A DNA stretch of 64,000 nt from NCBI GenBank assembly GCA_012628545.1, contig GCA_012628545.1_3035.1; one strand, given 5' to 3'. Origin of the DNA: a phage. This document shows positions 3,870 to 60,780 of the stretch, in pieces; positions within the stretch are counted from its first letter, which is position 1, and every line of letters begins with the position of its first letter. The notes below the pieces were generated by a model. That model was not told where the DNA came from. It searched no databases and saw nothing but the letters and a program-made list of their open reading frames with translations. Position numbers and translations under genes: made by a program.

Positions 3870-5280
<1,411 letters not shown>

Positions 5281-5284
<4 letters not shown>

Positions 5285-6715: not shown

Positions 6716-8303
<1,588 letters not shown>

Positions 8304-8330: not shown

Positions 8331-9509
8331 TTAAAAATATTTTTTAAAACTCATCATAACTTTATCATCAACATCATTATCAATCTGTGCAACAAGGTAA
8401 GATGACAGTTCTACTTCTTGCGGCGCGGATTGAACATTATCAGAATTAAGGTATTCACGAATCCAAGGATATGGATGTTTAACCGGAGCATCGGTAATTG
8501 GGCATGGAAGACCGCACTGTTTCATACGAGATACAGTTAAGTAATCAATAAAGCTCCACATGCTATTTGTATTTAATCCAGGAACATCGCCATCTTTAAA
8601 TAAATGAACTGCCCAATCTTTTTCTTGGCGGTTAACTTCCATGAAAATATCAACTGCTTCTTGTTCACACTCTTTGGCAATTTTAACCCATTCATCACCA
8701 TCAGTGCCAAGTTGAAGTTGACGAATAATATATTGTGTACCTTTAAGATGAAGCTGCTCATCACGTGCAATGAACTTCATAATCTTGGCATTACCTTCCA
8801 TGATTTCCATATTCTTGTGGAAGTTAAAGGTACATGCAAAAGATACATAAAAACGAATAGCTTCCAATGCGTTGATTACGTGCAGGCAGAGGTAAAGAGA
8901 GCGCATTAGTTCACGTTTCCAATACATTTCATGCTCTATGGCATCTTCAATAACGTCTTCGTCTGCATTAATTTCTTTTTGGTATTCGATATCAGCTTTA
9001 GCGTTTTCCCAATAACGAGTTTTAATCAGAACATCATCATAATAACGACCAATAGATTCAGCGCGTTTCATAATAGCTTCATCTAATACAATCTCATCAA
9101 ATACCTTTGACGGATCAGTATAAAGATTTCGCATGATATGAGTATATGAACGACTGTGAATAGTTTCACTAAAAGTCCACGTAGCAACCCATGTATCAAG
9201 GCTTGGGTCTGAAATCAATGACATAAGTACAGCAGACGGCGCACGACCCTGAATGCTATCCAAAAGTGATTGATACTTCAGATTATTAGTAAAAATATCT
9301 TGCTGATATTGAGGAAGCTTGTTAAATTGCGCAGCATCCATCATTAAGTTTACTTCTTCAGGGCGCCAGAAAAATGACAACTGCTTTTCGGTTAAATCTT
9401 CAAAAACTTTATGACGTTGAATATCATAACGCGCAATACCAAGACCTGAACCAAAAAACATAGGTTCTTTTAAAACATCAACTGGATTTGTATTAAAAAC
9501 TGTGCTCAT
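8331..9509 (-). CDS. nrdB: ribonucleotide reductase small subunit
   Basis: 392-aa uninterrupted ORF, class Ia R2 family; no intron. Confidence 0.9.
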   Translation of the reverse strand: MSTVFNTNPVDVLKEPMFFGSGLGIARYDIQRHKVFEDLTEKQLSFFWRPEEVNLMMDAAQFNKLPQYQQDIFTNNLKYQSLLDSIQGRAPSAVLMSLISDPSLDTWVATWTFSETIHSRSYTHIMRNLYTDPSKVFDEIVLDEAIMKRAESIGRYYDDVLIKTRYWENAKADIEYQKEINADEDVIEDAIEHEMYWKRELMRSLYLCLHVINALEAIRFYVSFACTFNFHKNMEIMEGNAKIMKFIARDEQLHLKGTQYIIRQLQLGTDGDEWVKIAKECEQEAVDIFMEVNRQEKDWAVHLFKDGDVPGLNTNSMWSFIDYLTVSRMKQCGLPCPITDAPVKHPYPWIREYLNSDNVQSAPQEVELSSYLVAQIDNDVDDKVMMSFKKYF

Positions 9510-12379: not shown

Positions 12380-13240
12380 TTACACCGCCATTTTTCCTTT
12401 AATTGGCAGATGAGATACATAGTTGTTAAGAACAAAATTATGAGGCTTTGCAAATTGACTCAACCAAAATACCTGCGATTCTGTGTCCCATTCATCAAAT
12501 TCATCTGGAAATTTTAATTGTAATTCGCATAAATCCATAGGTTCACGACGTAAAATTTCTTTACATTGTTCTACGTGATTCATATAGATATGAGTATTAC
12601 CACCAGAAAATATCAAATCTCCAGGAATAAGATTACACATTTTAGCTACAATATGAACTAACGTAGCATATGATGCAATATTAAATGGAAGACCGAGGAA
12701 AACATCTACCGAACGTTGATACCACTGCAAATCTAAATAGCCATTACGCACATTAAACTGATAGAACATATGACAAGGCGGTAATGCCATATATTTAAGT
12801 TCAGCTGGATTCCACGCAGAAACAATTTGACGCCTATCATTCGGCAGTTTTTTAATACGATCAATAACTTCTACAATTTGGTCTACACCGCCAAAATCAC
12901 GCCATTGTTTTCCATAAATTGGACCAAGTTCACCGCTATGATATCCTAAATCTTTTGCCTGATTTTCGTAATTTTCATCCCAGACTGTTTTGCCTTGGAT
13001 TAACGAATCGTGTTGAATTAATCGTAAATCATTGACATTTGTGCTTCCTGATAAAAACCATATTAGCTCAGCAATGCATGCATTCCAGGCGAGCTTTTTA
13101 GTTGTTACTGCAGGAAAGCCTTTAGTTAAATCCCAACGCAATTTAGTACCGAACAGAGCAATTGTTCCTGTGCCTGTGCGATCATCGGTTTCATAGCCAT
13201 TTTCAAAAATGTCTTTAATTAAATCTTGGTATTGTTTCAT
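12380..13240 (-). CDS. td: thymidylate synthase
   Basis: 286-aa uninterrupted ORF with ThyA active-site region LPPCH; no intron. Confidence 0.95.
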
Positions 13241-16191: not shown

Positions 16192-17100
16192 TTAAAGGTC
16201 ATTCAAAAGGTCATCCAGGTCCGTGTCATCAGCACTAGATGAACTGCTAGAGCTTGAGCTCATAAAATCATCTTCAGTTTTTGTATTGAAGTCATCAACA
16301 TTGAATGCATCCAAATCATCAGCAACTTTATCAGCTTTCTTAGCGGCAGTTGCTGCGGCACCGCCCATCACAGCAGTTCCCATAACTTGACCGAATTTAG
16401 TGCTCAGTTCTTCAAACGATTTGAATTTATCTTTAGAAGTCATTTCAGAAAGGTCAACCATTTGTTCGAACAGTTCTTTCTGGAAAGATTCATCATCAAT
16501 GTTTGGAATCGCAGATTGATTCAGGAATTTAGATTCGTCGTAGTTACTAAAACCAGAAACTTGTTTAACTTTCAGTACAAAGTTAGCACCTTCCCACGGA
16601 CAAGTTACATCAACCGGAGTTTCACCCATTTCAACATCAACTGCAATCATTGCATTGATTTTATCCCAGATTTTCTTACCGAAACGGTATTTAAATACTT
16701 TACCTTCGTTTTCTGGAGCAGCTGGGTCTTTTACAACAAGAATGTTAGCCCAGTAAGAAGTTTTACGTTTAACAAGACTGTACTCTTTATTGTCAGTGTT
16801 GTACAGATCATTTTTACTAATGTATTGACATACTGGGCAAGAATCGTAATCACCGTGGGTAGATGAACAGTTTTCAATATACCATTTACCATTTTTCTTG
16901 AAACCGTGATTTACAAGAATTGCGAACGGTGCTTGTTCATCATTTTTAGACGGAAGAAAACGAATTACTGCTTGACCGTTACCCGCATTGTCGAGTTTCA
17001 GTTTCCACTCGCCTTTATCTTCAGAAGAAAAACCACCTTTATTTCCAGCCAGTTTAGCCATTTGTGCAGCGAGTTCAGCAGTAGATTTACGTTTAAACAT
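16192..17100 (-). CDS. 32: single-stranded DNA-binding protein
   Basis: 302-aa ORF with acidic Ser/Asp-rich C-terminal tail; matches T4 gp32. Confidence 0.95.
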
Positions 17101-17170
17101 TTTTATTTCCTTTTAATTTAATTAACAGTTGGTGCTATGACGATGTATGACCTCATAGCTGGTCAGTGAG
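17101..17170 (-). promoter_or_regulatory. gene 32 translational operator (leader with pseudoknot)
   Basis: Leader contains GCUAUGAGGUCAUACAUCGUCAUAGCACC followed by A/U-rich tract before the AUG. Confidence 0.45.
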
Positions 17171-17173
17171 ATA

Positions 17174-17202
17174 ATTATAATCTATTTATAATAAGCAATT
17201 AA
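17174..17202 (-). promoter_or_regulatory. overlapping middle and late promoters of gene 32
   Basis: Minus strand TTGCTTAT MotA box, 12 bp, TATAAT; TATAAATA within the spacer. Confidence 0.45.
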
Positions 17203-17852
17203 TACTTGCAAGATTTCACAGTTTCAATGAAAACACTTTTAGCTTTCTGTGAATCAATATTTAAAATTTTTCTATAAGCCTTTAACTTTATAGAATAATT
17301 ATTCCAGACTAAATTATCAGTCTGTTCATCATGTTTATCAATTATATTTAAAAATGAATCAAGCAAGATAAACGTCTCAAACGAAATTATGTTCGATTGC
17401 AGAAGTTTAAAAATATAACTTGACTGAACCTTTGGATTATATTCAAAGATTTCTTTAAAAGCAGAAACTTCAACTTTTTTACTAAAATAATAAATGTTGC
17501 GAATATCTTCTTCAAACTTAAATTTAATTTGCTTTAAGCGTCCGATATATTCACGATAAAACACAAGTGCATCAGCGTCAGAGATGTCACCAATCCAAGC
17601 ATCTTGGTTAGCTACAAGATTGCTAATAAAAATTAAAGTCAATTCTTTTAATTTATACTTTTCTGATAGCTTTTGGAAAAAATACTTATCCCTTCGCTTT
17701 TGATAAGCGGCATCAGACACCCGCATGCACCAATTATACTTAATAACATCATACTTTCCATTCATATGTTGTTTTATCATTAAGTATAATTTATAAACTG
17801 ATTTACCATCAATATATCTTTCACCACCAGCAGGCATGCGGAGTTTAATCAT
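17199..17852 (-). CDS. 59: helicase loader
   Basis: 217-aa ORF; T4 gp59 length and sequence recall. Confidence 0.9.
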   Translation of the reverse strand: MIKLRMPAGGERYIDGKSVYKLYLMIKQHMNGKYDVIKYNWCMRVSDAAYQKRRDKYFFQKLSEKYKLKELTLIFISNLVANQDAWIGDISDADALVFYREYIGRLKQIKFKFEEDIRNIYYFSKKVEVSAFKEIFEYNPKVQSSYIFKLLQSNIISFETFILLDSFLNIIDKHDEQTDNLVWNNYSIKLKAYRKILNIDSQKAKSVFIETVKSCKY

Positions 17853-25191: not shown

Positions 25192-28100
25192 ATGGCTACT
25201 TTAAAACAAATACAATTTAAAAGAAGCAAAACCGCAGGTGCACGTCCTGCTGCTTCAGTATTAGCCGAAGGTGAATTGGCTATAAACTTAAAAGATAGAA
25301 CAATTTTTACTAAAGATGATTCAGGAAATATCATCGATTTAAGCATTTCTGCTGGTGGTAATATCAGTGGTAATATTACTCAAACTGGTGATTATACACA
25401 GACTGGAAAATTTAATTTAATTGGTCCGCAAATTGTAGAAAGCGGTGGATATATTGAGTTTAATTATCGTACTATTGGAAGTGGGGCTTGGTCTGGTCAA
25501 CACACTGCAAAAGCTCCAATTTTTGTAGATTTAAGCTCAGCTACTTCCACATCTGAATATAATCCTATAATTAAACAGCGCTTTAAAGATGGAACTTTTT
25601 CATTAGGTACTTTAGTTTCTGAAGGTTCGTTGAAGATTCATTATATCAATGAATCTGGCGATTCGAAATATTGGACGTTTCGACGTGACGGCGGATTTGT
25701 TGTTGACGGTGGAGGTTTAGCAGTATCAGGAGGTAGTATAACTACATCTGGAAATATTGCAGCTCTCGGAAATATTACTTCGCCTCAGATTAATACTAAA
25801 AATATTATTTTAGATACAAAAGCATTTGGACAATACGATTCGCAATCATTAGTTCAATATGTTTATCCTGGAACAGGTGAAGAAAATGGTATAAACTATC
25901 TTCGTAAAGTTCGAGCTAAATCAGGCGGAACCATTTACCATGAAATCGCTTCAGCTCAAACCGGTAAAAATGATGAAATTTCTTGGTGGACCGGAAATAC
26001 ACTTACTACTAAATTAATGGGTCTTCGTAATGATGGCGCAATGGTATTACGTCGTTCACTTGCTATTGGCACAATTACCACTGACGAAAATACTAACAAC
26101 TATGGTTCTCCTACTCCAATGGGAGAAAGATATATTGCTTTGGGCGATGCTGCCACTGGTTTAAAATACATTAAGCAGGGTGTTTATGATTTAGTAGGTA
26201 ATTGGAATTCTGTTGCTTCTATTACTCCTGATAGTTTCCGTAGTACTCGTAAAGCGTTATTTGGACGTTCAGAAGACCAAGGCGGAACCTGGACAATGCC
26301 TGGAACGAACGCTGCCTTTTTATCAGTTCAAACACAGGCTGATGAAAACACTGCTGGAGACGGCCAGACGCATATTGGCTATAACTCAGGCGGAAAAATG
26401 AACCACTATTTCCGTGGTAAAGGCAAAACTAATATTAATACTCAGGAAGGTATGGAAGTTAATCCGGGTATTTTGAAATTGGTAACTGGCTCTAATAATG
26501 TAATGTTTTATGCTGATGGCGGTATTACATCTGTTAAGCAGCTTTCAATATATAATGGCATATATTTAGCAGCTAATAATTCTACTGCTGGGCTAACATT
26601 CGCTCCAACTACTACAATTGATGGCACTAAGCAAATTTTGTGGGAAGGCGGTACTCGTGCTGGTCAGAATAAAAGCTATGTAACTGTTAAAGCATGGGGT
26701 AATTCATTTAACGCATCTGGCGATCGTAATCGTGAAACGGTTTTTGAAGTAGCTGATGGACAAGGATATTATTTTTATTCACAGCGTGTGGCTCCAAGTG
26801 GCTCTGAAACTACTGGGCCTGTTGTAACCCAGTTCAATGGACAAGTTAATGCTAGAGGAAGTATTATTACTGACGGAAGTTTTAAAGTTAATGGATTAAG
26901 CACTTTAGTCGGTAATGTTACCATGTCTAATGGTTTGTTTGTCCAAGGTGGTTCTTCTATTACTGGACAAGTAAAAATTGGTGGAACTGCTGATGCATTA
27001 AGAATTTGGAATGCCGAATACGGTGCTATTTTCCGTCGCTCAGAAACAGCATTACATATTATCCCGACTCCTAAAGATGCCGGTGAAAGTGGTGGAATAA
27101 GTAATCTCCGCCCACTTAGTATTAGTCTTAATAATGGTATGGTACAAATGCGCCATTCTGTTACGTTAGGCGATGATGGCGCTGGCGGTAATATGATTAC
27201 TGTGGACAACGATACCAAACTTGTTGTTGTTACTAGTCATAGTCGTATTTCTCCTAATTACCGTATGCAGGTAGGACAAGCAGCTTATATTGATGCTGAA
27301 TGTACTGACACCGTTCGCCCGGCTGGTGCAGGGTCTTTTGCTTCACAAAATAATGAAAACGTTCGTGCTCCGTTCTATATGAATATTAATCGCACAGATA
27401 CAAGTACTTACGTTCCTATTTTAAAACAACGTTATGTTCAAGGAAATAGCTGTTATTCTTTAGGTACTTTAATAAATGGCGGTAACTTCAGAGTTCATTA
27501 TCATGAAGGTGGAGACGGAAGTTCAACAGGCGCAATTATAAAAGATTTAGGCTGGGAATTTACACGTTCTGGTGATTTTATATCTCCTAAGCGCATTTCT
27601 GCTGGGGGTTCAGTTTATTTAGGTACAGACGGTAACATTACTGGTGGTTCTGGTAATTTTGCCAACTTAAATAGTACAATTGAATCACTTAAAACTGATA
27701 TTGTTTCAAGTTATCCTATTGGAGCTCCGATTCCTTGGCCTACTGATACACCTCCTGAAGGTTATGCCATAATGGAAGGTCAAACATTTGATGTTGGCTT
27801 GTATCCTAAGTTAGCTGCGGTGTATCCTTCCGGCTCTCTGCCTGATATGCGCGGGCAAACTATCAAGGGTAAACCATCTGGGCGTGCTGTATTAAGTACA
27901 GAAGCAGACGGTGTTAAGTCACATAGTCATAGTGCAAGTGCATCAAGCACGGATTTGGGTACTAAGACCACATCAAGCTTTGACTATGGTACTAAGACGA
28001 CAAGTAGTTTCGACTATGGTACTAAGACCAGTAATAATACTGGTGCTCATACGCATAGTTTGAGCGGTTCCACAAACACCGCCGGTGCGCACAGCCACAC

Positions 28101-28413
28101 AAGCGCTCTTTATGCGGGAAGTAACAACTCTCCTGGTACTGGTTCTATAAGAGGATCCGCCGGTGGTGGTAATACGCTTGGAACTTCTTCTTCTGGGGCA
28201 CATTCGCACTCTATATCTGGTACTGCTGCAAGCGCAGGCGCTCACGCGCATACTGTTGGTATTGGTGCTCATACCCATACTGTAGGTATCGGTGCTCATA
28301 CCCACACGGTAGCAATTGGCTCGCATGGTCATACTATCACTGTAAATAGTACAGGTAATACAGAAAACACGGTTAAAAACATTGCTTTTAACTATATTGT
28401 TCGTTTAGCATAA
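25192..28413 (+). CDS. 37: long tail fibre distal subunit (receptor-binding tip)
   Basis: 1073-aa ORF; His-X-His repeats and conserved C-terminus [11 protein letters not shown] as in T4-type gp37. Confidence 0.9.
27958..28030 (+). repeat. tandem 30-nt coding repeat in gene 37 ([10 protein letters not shown] x2.3)
   Basis: Two full and one partial copies with identical peptide but different serine codon families. Confidence 0.6.
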
Positions 28414-28440: not shown

Positions 28441-28992
28441 ATGAAAATCTATCATTATTATTTTGACACTAAAGAATTTTACAAAGAAGAAAATTACAAA
28501 CCTGTTAAAGGTCTCGGTCTTCCTGCTCATTCAACAATTAAAAAACCTTTAGAACCTAAAGAAGGATACGCAGTTGTATTTGATGAACGTACTCAAGATT
28601 GGATTTATGAAGAAGACCATCGCGGCAAACGAGCATGGACTTTTAATAAAGAAGAAATTTTTATAAGTGACATTGGAAGCCCGGTTGGTATAACCTTTGA
28701 TGAGCCCGGCGAATTTGATATATGGACTGATGACGGTTGGAAAGAAGACGAAACATATAAACGCGTTTTAATTCGCAATAGAAAAATTGAAGAATTATAC
28801 AAAGAATTTCAAGTTTTAAATAATATGATTGAAGCTTCTGTCGCGAATAAAAAGGAAAAATTCTATTATAAAAACCTTAAGCGATTCTTTGCTCTTTTAG
28901 AAAAGCATGAGCATTTAGGTGGTGAATTTCCCGCATGGCCTGAAAAAGAACGGAAACCTTGGTATAAGCGTTTATTCAAGCATTACGTATAA
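28441..28992 (+). CDS. 38: tail fibre assembly chaperone
   Basis: 183-aa ORF; matches T4-type gp38 by length and sequence recall. Confidence 0.85.
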   Translation: MKIYHYYFDTKEFYKEENYKPVKGLGLPAHSTIKKPLEPKEGYAVVFDERTQDWIYEEDHRGKRAWTFNKEEIFISDIGSPVGITFDEPGEFDIWTDDGWKEDETYKRVLIRNRKIEELYKEFQVLNNMIEASVANKKEKFYYKNLKRFFALLEKHEHLGGEFPAWPEKERKPWYKRLFKHYV

Positions 28993-34005: not shown

Positions 34006-34146
34006 TTACCATACTAGTGAATGTAGTGCCATAATAACATCAGAAATGAAAAGCACGACTTGAATTAATCCGAACATTATTCCGTAATATAACGCTACCA
34101 ATAAAGTAGCAAGGGCTAGTGAATAGCCCAAGATTTTCTTAATCAT
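34006..34146 (-). CDS. small hydrophobic protein (46 aa)
   Basis: Hand-translated MIKKILGYSLALATLLVALYYG...; below ORF-track cutoff. Confidence 0.35.
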   Translation of the reverse strand: MIKKILGYSLALATLLVALYYGIMFGLIQVVLFISDVIMALHSLVW

Positions 34147-34297
34147 TAGTAGATAACAACACAAATGTTAAATATGCACACATACCCTGGGCTAAAGCTT
34201 GTGAAAACACACTGCTGGCATCAATACAGATAGTTAAAACACATGCTACTATCCAACAAATAAATGAAATAACTCCTAATAATTTTGCGATATTCAT
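34139..34297 (-). CDS. small membrane protein (52 aa), possible Ac
   Basis: Hand-translated MNIAKLLGVISFICWIVACVL...; size and position between 52 and stp fit T4 ac. Confidence 0.35.
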   Translation of the reverse strand: MNIAKLLGVISFICWIVACVLTICIDASSVFSQALAQGMCAYLTFVLLSTND

Positions 34298-34304
34298 ATT
34301 TTCC

Positions 34305-34385
34305 TCACTGGCGTCCGAAGACGCCTTTAGTTTTAAGATTGTTACGATAAAACTGCATCACATGTTCGTTGTGGAAATTACTCAT
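34305..34385 (-). CDS. stp: Stp peptide (26 aa)
   Basis: Hand-translated [26 protein letters not shown]; ATG overlaps ndd stop (TAATG). Confidence 0.7.
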
Positions 34386-34828
34386 TAATATGCCTGCAAA
34401 ACGAATTTAAAGTTATCAGCCAACATACGGTTCATTTCTTCAAGTGTTTGATACTCAGAATGATGATTACGAGTAAACGCCAAAGCTAACTGACCTTTAC
34501 CAAATCCTGTCGTCAGAGGTTTCATCTTAGAAGCAGGCAGATAAAATACTGTGTATGGAACATTGTTATTTGCAATAGTACGCGCAAGTTGAGACCGGCG
34601 TTGACGAATATGACTTAGAACTGCGCTGAATCCTTGCTTAGAACGCTGATTACCCACATAAAATCGTGCGGATACGCATGAACCATCGAATTCATTTACT
34701 AAAAAGTAAAATCCAGGTTTAGATAAAATATCTTTATGCGGAGTTCCCAAAAACCACTCACCACCCTTGATTGTACCAATAACAGTAGCGCCTGCATTAT
34801 TCAGATCAGTAACAGTCATATATTTCAT
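34385..34828 (-). CDS. ndd: nucleoid disruption protein
   Basis: About 147 aa from internal ATG ([13 protein letters not shown]); sequence recall of T4 Ndd. Confidence 0.85.
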
Positions 34829-34886
34829 GTTAATTTCCTCTAAATTATTTTCTACTCCAAGGCCGCATGAATACGCGGCCATTAAA

Positions 34887-35779: not shown

Positions 35780-36043
35780 TCATAGCTCAATCTCAATGAT
35801 TTCAAGATTATTTTCTTTAATAGCTTTCTTTAAATCATCGTAAATAAGAACTTCCCAAGAATTGTTTAAATCACCATTCAACAAACGCTCTTGTTGCAAT
35901 TTATCAGTAAGATACGGTTGATCTGATTCATATTTAGACAATCCCAATGAAATAAATGATGTTGCATCGTCAATTTCAGAATATTGTACATGAACAAATT
36001 CACCTGTGATTTTATGTTTAACATAAAAGAATTTAAATTTCAT
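35780..36043 (-). CDS. hypothetical protein
   Basis: 87-aa ORF just downstream of an early promoter copy. Confidence 0.45.
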   Translation of the reverse strand: MKFKFFYVKHKITGEFVHVQYSEIDDATSFISLGLSKYESDQPYLTDKLQQERLLNGDLNNSWEVLIYDDLKKAIKENNLEIIEIEL

Positions 36044-40378: not shown

Positions 40379-42183
40379 TCTTTACGAAGGTCAGCATTAT
40401 CTCCCATGAGCATTTCAAAAAGCTCTTTCCAATTCTCAGGAAGTTTAACAACATCATATACTGGATTTTGAATCATCTCACGATATTCAGATTTTTCCAA
40501 AGAGCCAAGTCCCTTAATATAACGGATGCTATGTTTAGGTAGAGCATCTTTGGCACTCTCATATTCAGCGACTGTATAAAACCATTCTTGTTTTTTACCG
40601 ACCTGAGCGATGATTACAGGAGTTTTGACAAAGCGAATTCGTCCTTGCTCAAACAATTCTGGCCAATTACTAAAAAATCCGAGCAGAGAAGGATAAATGC
40701 TTCCTAGACCATCATGGTCAGCATCAGTCATAATAGCAATATTGCGATAATTCAAGTTTTCAGCTTTTTCACCAAGAACTAGACCAGTGATTGCGCAAAT
40801 ATCAAATAGTTCTTTGTTTTTAAGCATATCGGCATATGACATACCCCAGCTATTAAGAACTTTACCGCGCAATGGATAACCACCATGAAGTTCTTTATCG
40901 CGAACATCAATAAGATATCCGATAGCTGAATCACCCTCAGTCAAGAACAATGTAGTGTCAGCATCTTTACCGCAAAGATTCGCTTTAATATGTTTATGAA
41001 CCTTAGCTTTAGAAGCCTTTTTAGCTGCTTTAGTTTCTGCTGCTTTTTCTGCCGCCAATTTACGAGCCAAAGCAGCTTCAATAATCGGCATCAGAATTGC
41101 TTCATTATTTAGAATAGCGCGTGAAATCTTTTTAGCGTCAAGTTGAATATGACTACGAATTTCGCCAAATGGAGAAGTCAAACGCTCTTTAGTTTGAGAA
41201 TCAAATCGCATGTTTTTCATATCACGAACAAACATAACGATAGTCAAACATTCTTTGACACGTGCTTTAGTTACATCAATTTTGAACTTACGTTTGATTT
41301 GTGGAATAAGGTCTTCACAAATATCATCCATAACACAGTCAATGTGATGGCCACCATTCTTAGTGTGAATGTTATTCACGTAAGTTAATTGACGAAATCC
41401 ATCCGGCGAACGACCAACCGCAATAGAACAATTTTCTTGTTCTTGAACAATAGCATGTTCATCATACTGTCGTGCATATTTCTTAAAATTACCCTGAACC
41501 TTTTTACCATTAAAGGTAAATTGAATATCAGGATAAACAACAGCAAGTGTCTGGAGACGATCTAGTGTAATGTCAAGATAAACTTGGGACAGCTCATTAG
41601 TTTCAAATGACATAAAATCAGGAATGAAAGTAACACGGGTTCCTTTCCATTTTCCAGGAATATCTTCCCATGATTTATTTTCCATGCCGTTTGAACAACG
41701 AACTACAATATTATTTTGACCATCGCCAGTTTCACCAACAAACATCACAGAAAAAATGTTTGTCAAACTAGAACCAACGCCATTCATACCACCGGTGACA
41801 CGTTCTTTATCATCACCGAAGTTACCACCTGCTTTTGGAATAGTCCACGCAGCAACAGGACCAGGAATTTCTTCACCGGTAGGTGTTTTAACCATCGCCT
41901 GTGGAATACCACGACCGTTATCTTCAACTGTTACTTGATTATTTTTAATAGTAACATTAATTTTATTTGCGAATTTAAACTTAGTACGAATACCTTCATC
42001 TACTGAGTTATCGATAATTTCATCAATAAGCTTAACAAGACCAGGTACATACTGAACACTTTCCCATTTACCAAACAGAAATCGCTCATGCATTTCATTA
42101 GCTGAAGAGCCAATGTACATGCCGCTACGCTTTTTGATATGTTCAATATCGCTCAGAATTTTAATTTCATTCTTAATCATCAC
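40363..42183 (-). CDS. 39: DNA topoisomerase II large subunit (GyrB-like), gene 39 and gene 60 parts in one ORF
   Basis: 606-aa uninterrupted ORF; GHKL ATPase N-terminus; C-terminus carries the T4 gp60 sequence (NVAIMTDADHDGLGSIYPSLLGFF...). Confidence 0.9.
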   Translation of the reverse strand: MMIKNEIKILSDIEHIKKRSGMYIGSSANEMHERFLFGKWESVQYVPGLVKLIDEIIDNSVDEGIRTKFKFANKINVTIKNNQVTVEDNGRGIPQAMVKTPTGEEIPGPVAAWTIPKAGGNFGDDKERVTGGMNGVGSSLTNIFSVMFVGETGDGQNNIVVRCSNGMENKSWEDIPGKWKGTRVTFIPDFMSFETNELSQVYLDITLDRLQTLAVVYPDIQFTFNGKKVQGNFKKYARQYDEHAIVQEQENCSIAVGRSPDGFRQLTYVNNIHTKNGGHHIDCVMDDICEDLIPQIKRKFKIDVTKARVKECLTIVMFVRDMKNMRFDSQTKERLTSPFGEIRSHIQLDAKKISRAILNNEAILMPIIEAALARKLAAEKAAETKAAKKASKAKVHKHIKANLCGKDADTTLFLTEGDSAIGYLIDVRDKELHGGYPLRGKVLNSWGMSYADMLKNKELFDICAITGLVLGEKAENLNYRNIAIMTDADHDGLGSIYPSLLGFFSNWPELFEQGRIRFVKTPVIIAQVGKKQEWFYTVAEYESAKDALPKHSIRYIKGLGSLEKSEYREMIQNPVYDVVKLPENWKELFEMLMGDNADLRKEWMSQ

Positions 42184-54244: not shown

Positions 54245-54270
54245 ATTATACAATAAATATATAAAGCAAT
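54245..54270 (-). promoter_or_regulatory. MotA-dependent middle promoter for gene 56
   Basis: Minus strand ATTGCTTTA MotA box, 11-12 bp, TATAAT. Confidence 0.5.
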
Positions 54271-54281
54271 AAGGATGACAT

Positions 54282-59931: not shown

Positions 59932-60780
59932 TTAATCAACTGCTATTGGATGAATAGCATTAAACTTATGAAATGCTTCTGATTTTTCTTTACGCGAAAC
60001 ACACATGCGAAGAACCTTTAATGGCTCGTCTTCTTCACCCAACGATTTTCGTTTTTCAATATTCGACGTTTTCCAACGAGCTTGCTCTGGAAACTCTCTA
60101 TTGATTTGCTCAAGCGCTCTATTATGTTTAGAATTACTACGAATTGAACTACACCCACCAGGAGCTTGCGCTTTACCTGATACAACCAGATATTTGAACA
60201 AGGCCAAATGCGGATAACCTTGATTAATTAAATTGAGAAATGCATACATATCTTCGCACAAATCAATTTTTCCATACCCAATTTGTTCTGTCGTAAGTTT
60301 TCCAAGGTCATACCATGTATTCGTGAATCCATATGAATTTTCACGATAATTACCCCAAGATGAAGTAATTTTAAAAATTGGTAGGCGAGCATGACCGTGA
60401 TAATACCCACAATCCATGGCATCTTCGACGTATTGAATCAATTCATAGAACTGTTCATGAGTCAATTGATTGACTTTATCCACACAACGACGGTCATCTC
60501 TTTTTCGCATTGAACTCATACGAATAGTAGTATCATCGTCAATCATCCAGATTCGTTGGCCTGCATACATATCAGTAATTGCTTTACGAGTACCGGCAAT
60601 TCCGTTTACATCATCAGGAATAGTTATAATTTTAGCTCTAGACCCATAGGCATCATAATAAGCTTTTTCTTCATGTTCACGCACTACAATATGGGGTTCA
60701 TAATCAGTCGGAAACATATCAAGGGCAGAAACTGCCCCGACCCGCTGATAACTTGGAATTACGAATTGAATCATTTCCAC
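59932..60780 (-). CDS. putative DNA hydroxymethylcytosine glycosyltransferase (non-T4-type)
   Basis: 282-aa ORF with DxD-like motif WMIDDDTTI; occupies the beta-gt position between uvsX and gene 42 but does not resemble T4 beta-gt as I recall it. Confidence 0.45.
   Translation of the reverse strand: MEMIQFVIPSYQRVGAVSALDMFPTDYEPHIVVREHEEKAYYDAYGSRAKIITIPDDVNGIAGTRKAITDMYAGQRIWMIDDDTTIRMSSMRKRDDRRCVDKVNQLTHEQFYELIQYVEDAMDCGYYHGHARLPIFKITSSWGNYRENSYGFTNTWYDLGKLTTEQIGYGKIDLCEDMYAFLNLINQGYPHLALFKYLVVSGKAQAPGGCSSIRSNSKHNRALEQINREFPEQARWKTSNIEKRKSLGEEDEPLKVLRMCVSRKEKSEAFHKFNAIHPIAVD

What the first reader, a model, noticed from the sequence alone, without database searches (positions are those of the whole stretch)
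34305..34385. stp peptide gene present but absent from the ORF track
A 26-codon ORF encodes [26 protein letters not shown], which I recognise as T4 Stp, the peptide that inhibits host EcoprrI restriction and thereby activates the PrrC anticodon nuclease. Its ATG overlaps the ndd stop (TAATG). The phage is therefore predicted to interact with prr-type anticodon-nuclease defence.
Basis: partly seen in the sequence, partly recalled or inferred. Interest (0 to 1): 0.4.

Follow-up and report, generated by a model that had tools for sequence, protein, structure and literature searches.

The report
T4 stp gene, correctly spotted
The 26-codon reading frame is the well-known phage T4 gene stp, identical in protein sequence to the T4 original, so this is a routine annotation gap filled rather than a discovery.

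Summary
Confirmed, and ordinary. Window 34305-34385 on the minus strand is a 26-codon ORF plus TGA encoding [26 protein letters not shown]. It matches T4 Stp (NP_049878) at 26 of 26 residues, and its three nucleotide differences from T4 are all synonymous. It hits Pfam PF08133 (anticodon nuclease activator) over its full length, at 75 bits against a cut-off of 25. It sits where T4 has stp, between ndd and ac, and its ATG shares one base with the ndd TAA stop.

The window is a T4-like phage (Tequatrovirus) but not T4 itself. It is collinear with T4 from about 130.2 kb round to 28.5 kb. It also carries intact pseT (polynucleotide kinase/phosphatase) and rnlA (RNA ligase 1), the enzymes that repair PrrC-cut tRNA-Lys.

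The peptide is under purifying selection. Against a siphovirus homologue (K1ind2), the first 18 codons show 10 synonymous changes and no amino-acid changes.

Published T4 work shows that Stp inhibits type IC restriction (EcoprrI, EcoR124I) and so unmasks PrrC. Applying that to this phage is inference from sequence identity.

Many public records of related phages leave stp unannotated because it is so short. Nothing here is novel; the side observations are listed separately.

The parts
34305..34385 (-). stp: 26 codons plus TGA, encoding [26 protein letters not shown]
   Evidence: Translation. 26/26 identical to T4 NP_049878. Three nucleotide differences from T4, all synonymous. PF08133 at 75.3 bits against a cut-off of 25, full length. 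PHROG 6763. Exact-sequence look-up names it Stp.
34332..34385 (-). Codons 1-18 of stp, the N-proximal region that published T4 genetics ties to both activities
   Evidence: Loss-of-function suppressors cluster at residues 4-14, and deleting the C-terminal 8 codons has only a moderate effect (PMC3014915). In my alignment, T2, TOPO13 and K1ind2 are identical to the window over residues 1-18. K1ind2 differs at 10 of these 18 codons, all synonymously. Pfam matches of the most distant variants cover exactly residues 1-18.
34310..34325 (-). C(UUCG)G hairpin GGCGUC-UUCG-GACGCC inside the last stp codons, followed by the GAGGAAAA Shine-Dalgarno sequence and ATG of ac
   Evidence: MFE -11.5 kcal/mol, z = -2.9. 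No U-run follows on the sense strand. On the + strand it scores as terminator-like. Retained in T4 and 101117BS1, and in VR7 with a UUUG loop, but absent in T2 and K1ind2. It is therefore not required for the peptide.
34385..34828 (-). ndd (nucleoid disruption protein, 147 aa); its TAA stop overlaps the stp ATG by one base
   Evidence: PF06591 at 293 bits. 93.4% identical to T4 Ndd. The T4 record has the same 1-nt ndd/stp overlap, and so does T2.
34139..34297 (-). ac (acridine resistance membrane protein), the gene immediately downstream of stp
   Evidence: 96% identical to T4 Ac. Annotated as ac in KMB22.
4062..4964 (-). pseT: polynucleotide 5'-kinase/3'-phosphatase, the 'healing' enzyme that counters PrrC
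   Evidence: Full length, 95.7% identical to T4 PseT. PF13671 plus PF25109. The GCPGSGKS P-loop, D35, R38, R126 and the DVDGT motif are unchanged. Which residues are catalytic comes from my own knowledge of the T4 Pnk literature.
6719..7840 (-). rnlA (gene 63): RNA ligase 1, the 'sealing' enzyme that counters PrrC
   Evidence: Full length, 98.4% identical to T4 RnlA. PF09511 plus PF20819. The KEDG motif with K99 is unchanged.

Best explanation
This is the stp gene of a T4-like (Tequatrovirus) phage. It is probably translated by coupling to the upstream ndd gene: the stop and start codons overlap (TAATG) and a weak AGG lies 7 nt upstream. The product is a 26-residue peptide identical to T4 Stp.

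By inference from T4 biochemistry and genetics, the peptide binds the host type IC restriction-modification complex (EcoprrI, EcoR124I). It blocks restriction but not modification. In hosts whose type IC locus carries prrC, this changes the EcoprrI-PrrC complex so that the latent PrrC anticodon nuclease is unmasked and cuts tRNA-Lys 5' of the wobble base. The activation needs GTP hydrolysis and DNA carrying unmodified EcoprrI sites, with dTTP proposed as a co-activator.

[quoted passage not shown] Both genes are intact in the same window.

Shown here: the ORF, its identity to T4 Stp, its synteny, purifying selection on it, and the presence and integrity of pseT and rnlA.

Inferred: expression, binding to the type IC enzyme, PrrC activation and tRNA repair in this particular phage.
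For: Sequence and identity:
- The ORF and its translation.
- 26/26 identity to the annotated T4 stp, with three synonymous nucleotide differences.
- PF08133 full-length, 75.3 bits against a cut-off of 25, and PHROG 6763 'activator of host PrrC lysyl-tRNA endonuclease'.
- The exact sequence is on record as Stp / STP_BPT4 on 147 contigs.

Context:
- Gene order matches T4: 52, 52.1, ac, stp, ndd, ndd.1 ... denB, rIIB. The whole window is collinear with T4.
- 423 phage records carry a peptide at least 99% identical.

Selection:
- K1ind2 against the window, first 18 codons: 10 synonymous, 0 non-synonymous changes. T2 and TOPO13 differ only after residue 18.

Repair genes:
- pseT and rnlA are full-length with catalytic motifs intact.

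Mechanism from the literature:
- PMC3014915, PMC1484252, PMC12707154, PMC12409349.
Against: - Nothing in the sequence argues against it.
- There is no strong Shine-Dalgarno sequence before the ATG, only AGG at -10 to -8, so translation probably depends on coupling to ndd.
- No experiment was done on this phage.
- How Stp inhibits EcoprrI was still described as unknown in a 2025 review (PMC12707154), and no solved structure contains the peptide.
- From my own knowledge, T-even DNA with glucosylated hydroxymethylcytosine is already largely immune to type I restriction. The selective benefit of the anti-restriction activity in this kind of phage is therefore not obvious.
Confidence: 0.96

Rival explanations
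1. The region is conserved because of RNA or DNA signals rather than a peptide. These signals would be the stable C(UUCG)G hairpin and the ribosome-binding site of ac. On this view the 26-codon frame is incidental.
For: A stable hairpin (-11.5 kcal/mol, z = -2.9) fills the last six codons and is followed directly by the ac Shine-Dalgarno sequence and ATG. It also scores as a terminator-like site on the opposite strand. CTTCGG is over-represented in the window, 33 against 12.8 expected.
Against: - Substitutions follow a coding pattern. The differences from T4 and 101117BS1 are all synonymous.
- K1ind2 sits in an unrelated siphovirus context with 13 synonymous-codon changes. It keeps residues 1-18 exactly and has lost the hairpin.
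- T2 also lacks the hairpin but keeps residues 1-18.
- The hairpin covers only the C-terminal part, which T4 genetics reports as largely dispensable.
- According to a published review, Stp expressed from a plasmid is sufficient to elicit the anticodon nuclease.
Confidence: 0.02
2. The gene is Stp, but in this phage its relevant activity is not the EcoprrI/PrrC interplay. It is kept for another target, or only as an inhibitor of type IC restriction acting on unmodified or under-modified DNA. PrrC activation would then be a rare cost that does not matter in the natural hosts.
For: - Stp-family peptides passing the Pfam threshold occur in siphoviruses of Drexlerviridae, Kagunavirus and Caminolopintovirus. 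Anti-restriction would be directly useful there if, as I assume, their DNA is unmodified.
- prr is an optional locus.
- The window encodes dCMP hydroxymethylase (gp42) and a TAGT-family glycosyltransferase. Its DNA is therefore probably hypermodified and, from my own knowledge, already resistant to type I enzymes.
Against: - This refines the main explanation rather than contradicting it.
- The peptide is identical to one shown to do both things in T4.
- The phage keeps both tRNA-repair genes intact, which fits continued exposure to anticodon nucleases.
- No other target of Stp came up in the papers read.
Confidence: 0.15
3. Chance ORF or decayed remnant with no function.
For: Short ORFs are abundant by chance: 58 of at least 20 aa in 4 kb. 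Most public annotations omit this one.
Against: Intact start and stop, 26/26 identity to a characterised peptide, E-values from 1e-10 to 2e-21, and only synonymous drift.
Confidence: 0.01

Closest known systems
Phage T4 Stp (gene stp, NP_049878, UniProt STP_BPT4; Pfam PF08133 Nuclease_act)
   Same: All 26 residues, the length, the position between ndd and ac, the 1-nt overlap with the ndd stop, and the 3' C(UUCG)G hairpin.
   Different: Three synonymous nucleotide changes: CAC/CAT, CAT/CAC and TTT/TTC. The surrounding phage is a different Tequatrovirus. Its best listed relatives over 24 kb are about 94-97% identical in nucleotides, and the neighbouring Ndd is 93% identical to T4's and 4 residues shorter.
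T2-type Stp allele (T2, TOPO13)
   Same: Residues 1-18 are identical, with the same position after ndd.
   Different: The C-terminus is replaced (NFGILGFKK / NFGILGSKNS instead of TKGVFGRQ), and there is no hairpin.
Stp-family peptides of siphoviruses (K1ind2 Kagunavirus; ZL19, U136B, XT34 Drexlerviridae; STGO-35-1 Caminolopintovirus)
   Same: A shared core running roughly S-x-[FWH]-H-N-[EG]-H-[VI]-M-Q-[FWL]-[YH]-R-x-x-[LI]-K. All seven divergent variants scanned (these five plus T2 and VR7) pass the PF08133 gathering score.
   Different: Unrelated genome context with no ndd or ac. C-termini diverge, and one has an N-terminal extension. U136B and STGO-35-1 match only over residues 1-18. Their activity has not been tested as far as the papers read show.
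Other anti-restriction proteins that trip a back-up abortive-infection system (T7 Ocr with PARIS; Ronin)
   Same: The same logic: an inhibitor of restriction is sensed and a toxic effector is released. For PARIS the effector is also a tRNA-Lys nuclease (PMC12409349; bioRxiv 10.1101/2023.04.06.535777).
   Different: No sequence relationship. Ocr is a DNA mimic, whereas Stp is a 26-residue peptide specific for type IC enzymes.

Membership tests
Stp / Pfam PF08133 (anticodon nuclease activator) | Full-length match to the family profile above the curated threshold | tested here: met
   75.3 bits against a cut-off of 25, residues 1-26 on profile positions 1-26, E=2e-21. PHROG 6763 at E=4e-21.
Stp / Pfam PF08133 (anticodon nuclease activator) | Sequence identity to the experimentally characterised T4 peptide | tested here: met
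   26/26 residues. The exact-sequence look-up returns Stp / STP_BPT4.
Stp / Pfam PF08133 (anticodon nuclease activator) | Intact N-proximal 18 residues, including positions 4-14 where loss-of-function mutations cluster | tested here: met
   Identical to T4. The functional map comes from PMC3014915. The same 18 residues are conserved across T2, TOPO13 and K1ind2.
Stp / Pfam PF08133 (anticodon nuclease activator) | Tevenvirinae synteny: directly after ndd, before ac, on the early-gene strand | tested here: met
   The window order 52 / 52.1 / ac / stp / ndd / ndd.1 matches the T4 record.
Stp / Pfam PF08133 (anticodon nuclease activator) | Evidence that the frame is under selection as a protein | tested here: met
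   Only synonymous differences from T4 and 101117BS1. Against K1ind2, 10 synonymous and 0 non-synonymous changes in codons 1-18.
Stp / Pfam PF08133 (anticodon nuclease activator) | Inhibits type IC restriction (EcoprrI, EcoR124I) but not type IA | not testable with these tools
   Known for the identical T4 peptide (Penner et al. 1995, as summarised in PMC3014915). Needs a plating assay.
Stp / Pfam PF08133 (anticodon nuclease activator) | Activates latent PrrC anticodon nuclease in prr+ cells | not testable with these tools
   Known for the identical T4 peptide. Needs a tRNA-Lys cleavage assay.
T4-type prr counter-defence set (stp + pseT + rnlA) | Phage encodes both the polynucleotide kinase/phosphatase and RNA ligase 1 with catalytic motifs | tested here: met
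   pseT at 4062-4964 (-), 95.7% identical. rnlA at 6719-7840 (-), 98.4% identical. The P-loop, DVDGT and KEDG motifs are unchanged.

The most novel reading that the evidence does not exclude
Stp would not be a T-even peculiarity but a mobile anti-type-IC-restriction peptide shared among unrelated enterobacterial phages: Straboviridae, Drexlerviridae, Kagunavirus and Caminolopintovirus. An 18-residue core would have been held nearly constant over long divergence. In siphoviruses, whose DNA is presumably unmodified, it would be a genuine anti-restriction factor. There it sometimes lies near a PNKP-phosphatase-like gene, as in U136B. In hypermodified T-even phages it may be kept for a reason not yet identified. 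If so, prr-like guarding of type IC systems would act on a much wider range of phages than the T4 literature implies.
Probability: 0.3. Interest if true: 0.35.

Novelty: already known. Interest (0 to 1): 0.1.

Why it matters
The practical value is in annotation. stp is a real, functionally characterised gene that length thresholds and many deposited annotations of T4-like phages miss. In a spread sample of 28 records carrying the identical peptide, 21 list only ndd under the match and only one names Stp. NCBIfam has no model for it.

For anyone predicting host range or defence interactions of this phage, for instance in therapy cocktails, the trio stp + pseT + rnlA has a clear reading. The phage should trigger PrrC in hosts with prr-type loci and survive it. 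A pseT or rnlA mutant would be excluded from those hosts. None of this adds to what is known from T4.

Tried and rejected
- Solved structures: no PDB chain matches the peptide even at E<=10, so there is no structural basis for the mechanism.
- NCBIfam: no model.
- Rfam at gathering thresholds over the whole window: no hits. The hairpin is not a curated RNA family, and no group I introns are present.
- Folding the 151-nt region around stp: not more stable than shuffles (z = -1.2). Only the local 16-nt hairpin stands out.
- Promoter and terminator scans: consensus-level matches only. I did not use them to assign a transcription unit. The 'delayed early' expression class is taken from PMC3014915.
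- The + strand over the same coordinates translates to [27 protein letters not shown], which has no start codon. The overlapping 21-aa TTG ORF at 34285-34350 (+) was treated as chance.
- How common prrC/EcoprrI is in E. coli genomes: not determined, because I had no prrC sequence to use as a query.
- The large protein database searches, structure prediction and metagenome scans were not run. The identification was already unambiguous.

Full report
**Observation.** The plus strand at 34305-34385 has no start codon and does not give the peptide. The minus strand translates to [26 protein letters not shown] followed by TGA, and the six-frame ORF list with a 20-aa floor includes it. On the minus strand the sequence reads GCA TAT TAA TG AGT. 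A 26-codon ORF is not significant in itself: 58 ORFs of at least 20 aa overlap the surrounding 4 kb. The case rests on comparison with other sequences.

**Formal comparison.** The T4 reference record (NC_000866) annotates stp at 165505-165585 as 'activator of host PrrC lysyl-tRNA endonuclease'. It lies directly after ndd (165585-166040) with the same one-base overlap, and before ac. Its translation matches the window peptide at 26 of 26 residues. At the DNA level the two coding sequences differ at three positions, all synonymous.
- Pfam PF08133 (anticodon nuclease activator family) matches end to end at 75.3 bits against a curated cut-off of 25.
- PHROG 6763 gives the same result.
- An exact-sequence look-up finds the peptide on 147 contigs under the names 'anticodon nuclease activator Stp', 'T4 Suppressor of prr ... 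STP_BPT4' and 'activator of host PrrC lysyl-tRNA endonuclease'.

**What the window is.** The window is a Tequatrovirus but not T4.
- The stp locus is 99.1% identical to phages Ozark and KMB22.
- The best listed relatives over 24 kb are about 94-97% identical.
- The whole window is collinear with T4 from about 130.2 kb through the end of the T4 record to about 28.5 kb.
- The gene order around stp is 52, 52.1, ac, stp, ndd, ndd.1 ... denB, rIIB, as in T4.

**Is it a real gene?** The substitution pattern says yes.
- T4 and phage 101117BS1 differ from the window only synonymously.
- T2 and TOPO13 match over residues 1-18 and carry a different C-terminus.
- K1ind2 is a 43-kb Kagunavirus siphovirus with an unrelated gene neighbourhood. 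It differs from the window at 10 of the first 18 codons without a single amino-acid change.

This fits the published functional map. Loss-of-function stp mutations cluster at residues 4-14, removing the last 8 codons only moderately reduces activity, and the N-terminal part is almost invariant among T4 relatives (PMC3014915). The tight junction with ndd recurs in T2 (one-base overlap) and VR7 (one-base spacer). Only a weak AGG lies 7 nt upstream. I therefore infer that stp is translated by coupling to ndd. That step is inference.

**Mechanism.** The mechanism comes from the literature on the identical peptide, not from any test here.
- It relieves restriction, but not modification, by the type IC enzymes EcoprrI and EcoR124I. 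[quoted passage not shown]
- PrrC is held latent by association with EcoprrI.
- Activation needs Stp, GTP hydrolysis and DNA carrying unmodified EcoprrI sites, and dTTP is proposed as a co-activator.
- The cut tRNA is healed by polynucleotide kinase/phosphatase and resealed by RNA ligase 1.

These points are from PMC3014915 and PMC1484252. A 2025 review still calls the inhibition mechanism unknown (PMC12707154), and no solved structure contains the peptide.

**Extension of the finding.** The same window carries the two repair genes.
- pseT lies at 4062-4964 (-). It is full length and 95.7% identical to T4. The kinase P-loop GCPGSGKS, D35, R38, R126 and the phosphatase motif DVDGT are unchanged.
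- rnlA lies at 6719-7840 (-). It is 98.4% identical to T4, and the KEDG lysine motif is unchanged.

The list of catalytic residues is from my own knowledge of the T4 Pnk and Rnl1 literature. The phage therefore has the complete T4-type set: the trigger plus both repair enzymes.

**Rivals.** Could the conservation reflect RNA signals rather than a peptide? The last six codons form a C(UUCG)G hairpin (GGCGUC-UUCG-GACGCC, 34310-34325, -11.5 kcal/mol, z = -2.9). It is followed at once by the ribosome-binding site and ATG of ac. On the opposite strand it looks like a terminator. However, T2 and K1ind2 lack the hairpin and still conserve the peptide core. It also covers only the C-terminal part reported as largely dispensable. 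It is an added feature of the T4-type allele, not the reason the ORF exists. Chance and pseudogene readings are excluded by the identity and the synonymous-only drift.

**Annotation gap.** The peptide is at least 99% identical in 423 phage records. In the spread sample of 28 records carrying the identical 26-residue peptide, 21 show only ndd under the match and only one names it Stp or PrrC activator. KMB22, whose DNA is identical in the aligned stretch around stp, has no CDS between ndd and ac. NCBIfam has no Stp model.

**Verdict.** The feature is already known and biologically unsurprising in a T4-like phage, so interest is low (0.1).

The only mildly interesting lead is the spread of Stp-family peptides outside T-even phages. 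Those in Drexlerviridae, Kagunavirus and Caminolopintovirus all pass the Pfam threshold. In U136B a phosphatase-only PNKP-like ORF lies about 570 nt downstream of the peptide gene. Some depositors have already annotated these peptides as putative Stp.

Noticed in passing
L008:1501-1578 (K1ind2); L009:1483-1575 (ZL19); L010:1501-1581 (U136B); L011:1501-1581 (STGO-35-1); L012:1501-1578 (XT34): Stp-family peptides occur in siphoviruses unrelated to T4: Kagunavirus, Drexlerviridae and Caminolopintovirus. All pass the PF08133 gathering score. The two most distant match only residues 1-18, the part T4 genetics identifies as functional. K1ind2 is 92% identical in protein but diverged at 13 codons synonymously, so this is not a recent transfer.
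   Followed up: partly
L010:2151-2714 (+), phage U136B: About 570 nt downstream of the U136B Stp-like ORF lies a 187-aa protein matching only the phosphatase domain of polynucleotide kinase/phosphatase (PF25109 HAD_PNKP, 70 bits), with no kinase domain. This may be a partial tRNA-end-healing function linked to Stp in a T1-like phage.
   Followed up: partly
window 34310-34325 (-), and window-wide: A C(UUCG)G tetraloop hairpin lies inside the 3' end of stp, just before the ac ribosome-binding site. It scores as terminator-like on the + strand. The hexamer CTTCGG occurs 33 times in the window against 12.8 +/- 3.3 expected, and none of 100 shuffles reached 33. From my own knowledge, T4 is known for an abundance of such hairpins.
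   Followed up: partly
window 8833-8836, 12691-12692, 40698-40763: Compared with T4, the phage lacks both group I introns in this region (nrdB and td) with I-TevIII and I-TevI. Rfam finds no intron anywhere in the window. The gene 60 / 60.1 / mobA segment is also missing, so the gene 39/60 topoisomerase subunit is probably continuous, without the gene 60 translational bypass segment. mobE, segA, segF and segG also give no tblastn hit.
   Followed up: partly
window 54250-54272: T4 dam (DNA adenine methyltransferase, T4 16846-17625) has no counterpart. tblastn with T4 Dam finds nothing in the window, and the flanking T4 sequence joins across about 20 nt.
   Followed up: partly
window 59932-60780 (-): T4 has segA and the beta-glucosyltransferase b-gt between uvsX and gene 42. 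This phage instead has a 282-aa ORF matching PF20691 (TET-associated glycosyltransferase, 39 bits), with no hit to T4 b-gt. dCMP hydroxymethylase (gp42) is present at 96.7% identity. The sugar decoration of its hydroxymethylcytosine DNA is therefore probably not T4-like.
   Followed up: partly
window 4964-5284 (-) and 35780-36043 (-): Two ORFs have no T4 nucleotide counterpart and no Pfam match. One is a 106-aa ORF inserted between pseT.1 and pseT. The other is an 87-aa ORF between ndd.6 and denB, annotated as hypothetical in KMB22.
   Followed up: partly
window 25192-28410 (+) and 28441-28989 (+): The distal long-tail-fibre protein gp37 is only 63% identical to T4 gp37, and some stretches have no nucleotide match. 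The adjacent gp38 is 99% identical to T4. The receptor-binding region is mosaic, which bears on host range.
   Followed up: no
window 34385-34828 (-): Ndd is 147 aa here, against 151 aa in T4, and 93% identical. That makes it the least conserved of the well-conserved genes right around stp. The mechanical ORF call extends it 18 codons upstream to an ATG at 34882. That start is probably not used: T4 starts at MKYMTV, and KMB22 annotates its ndd at the same 147-aa length.
   Followed up: no
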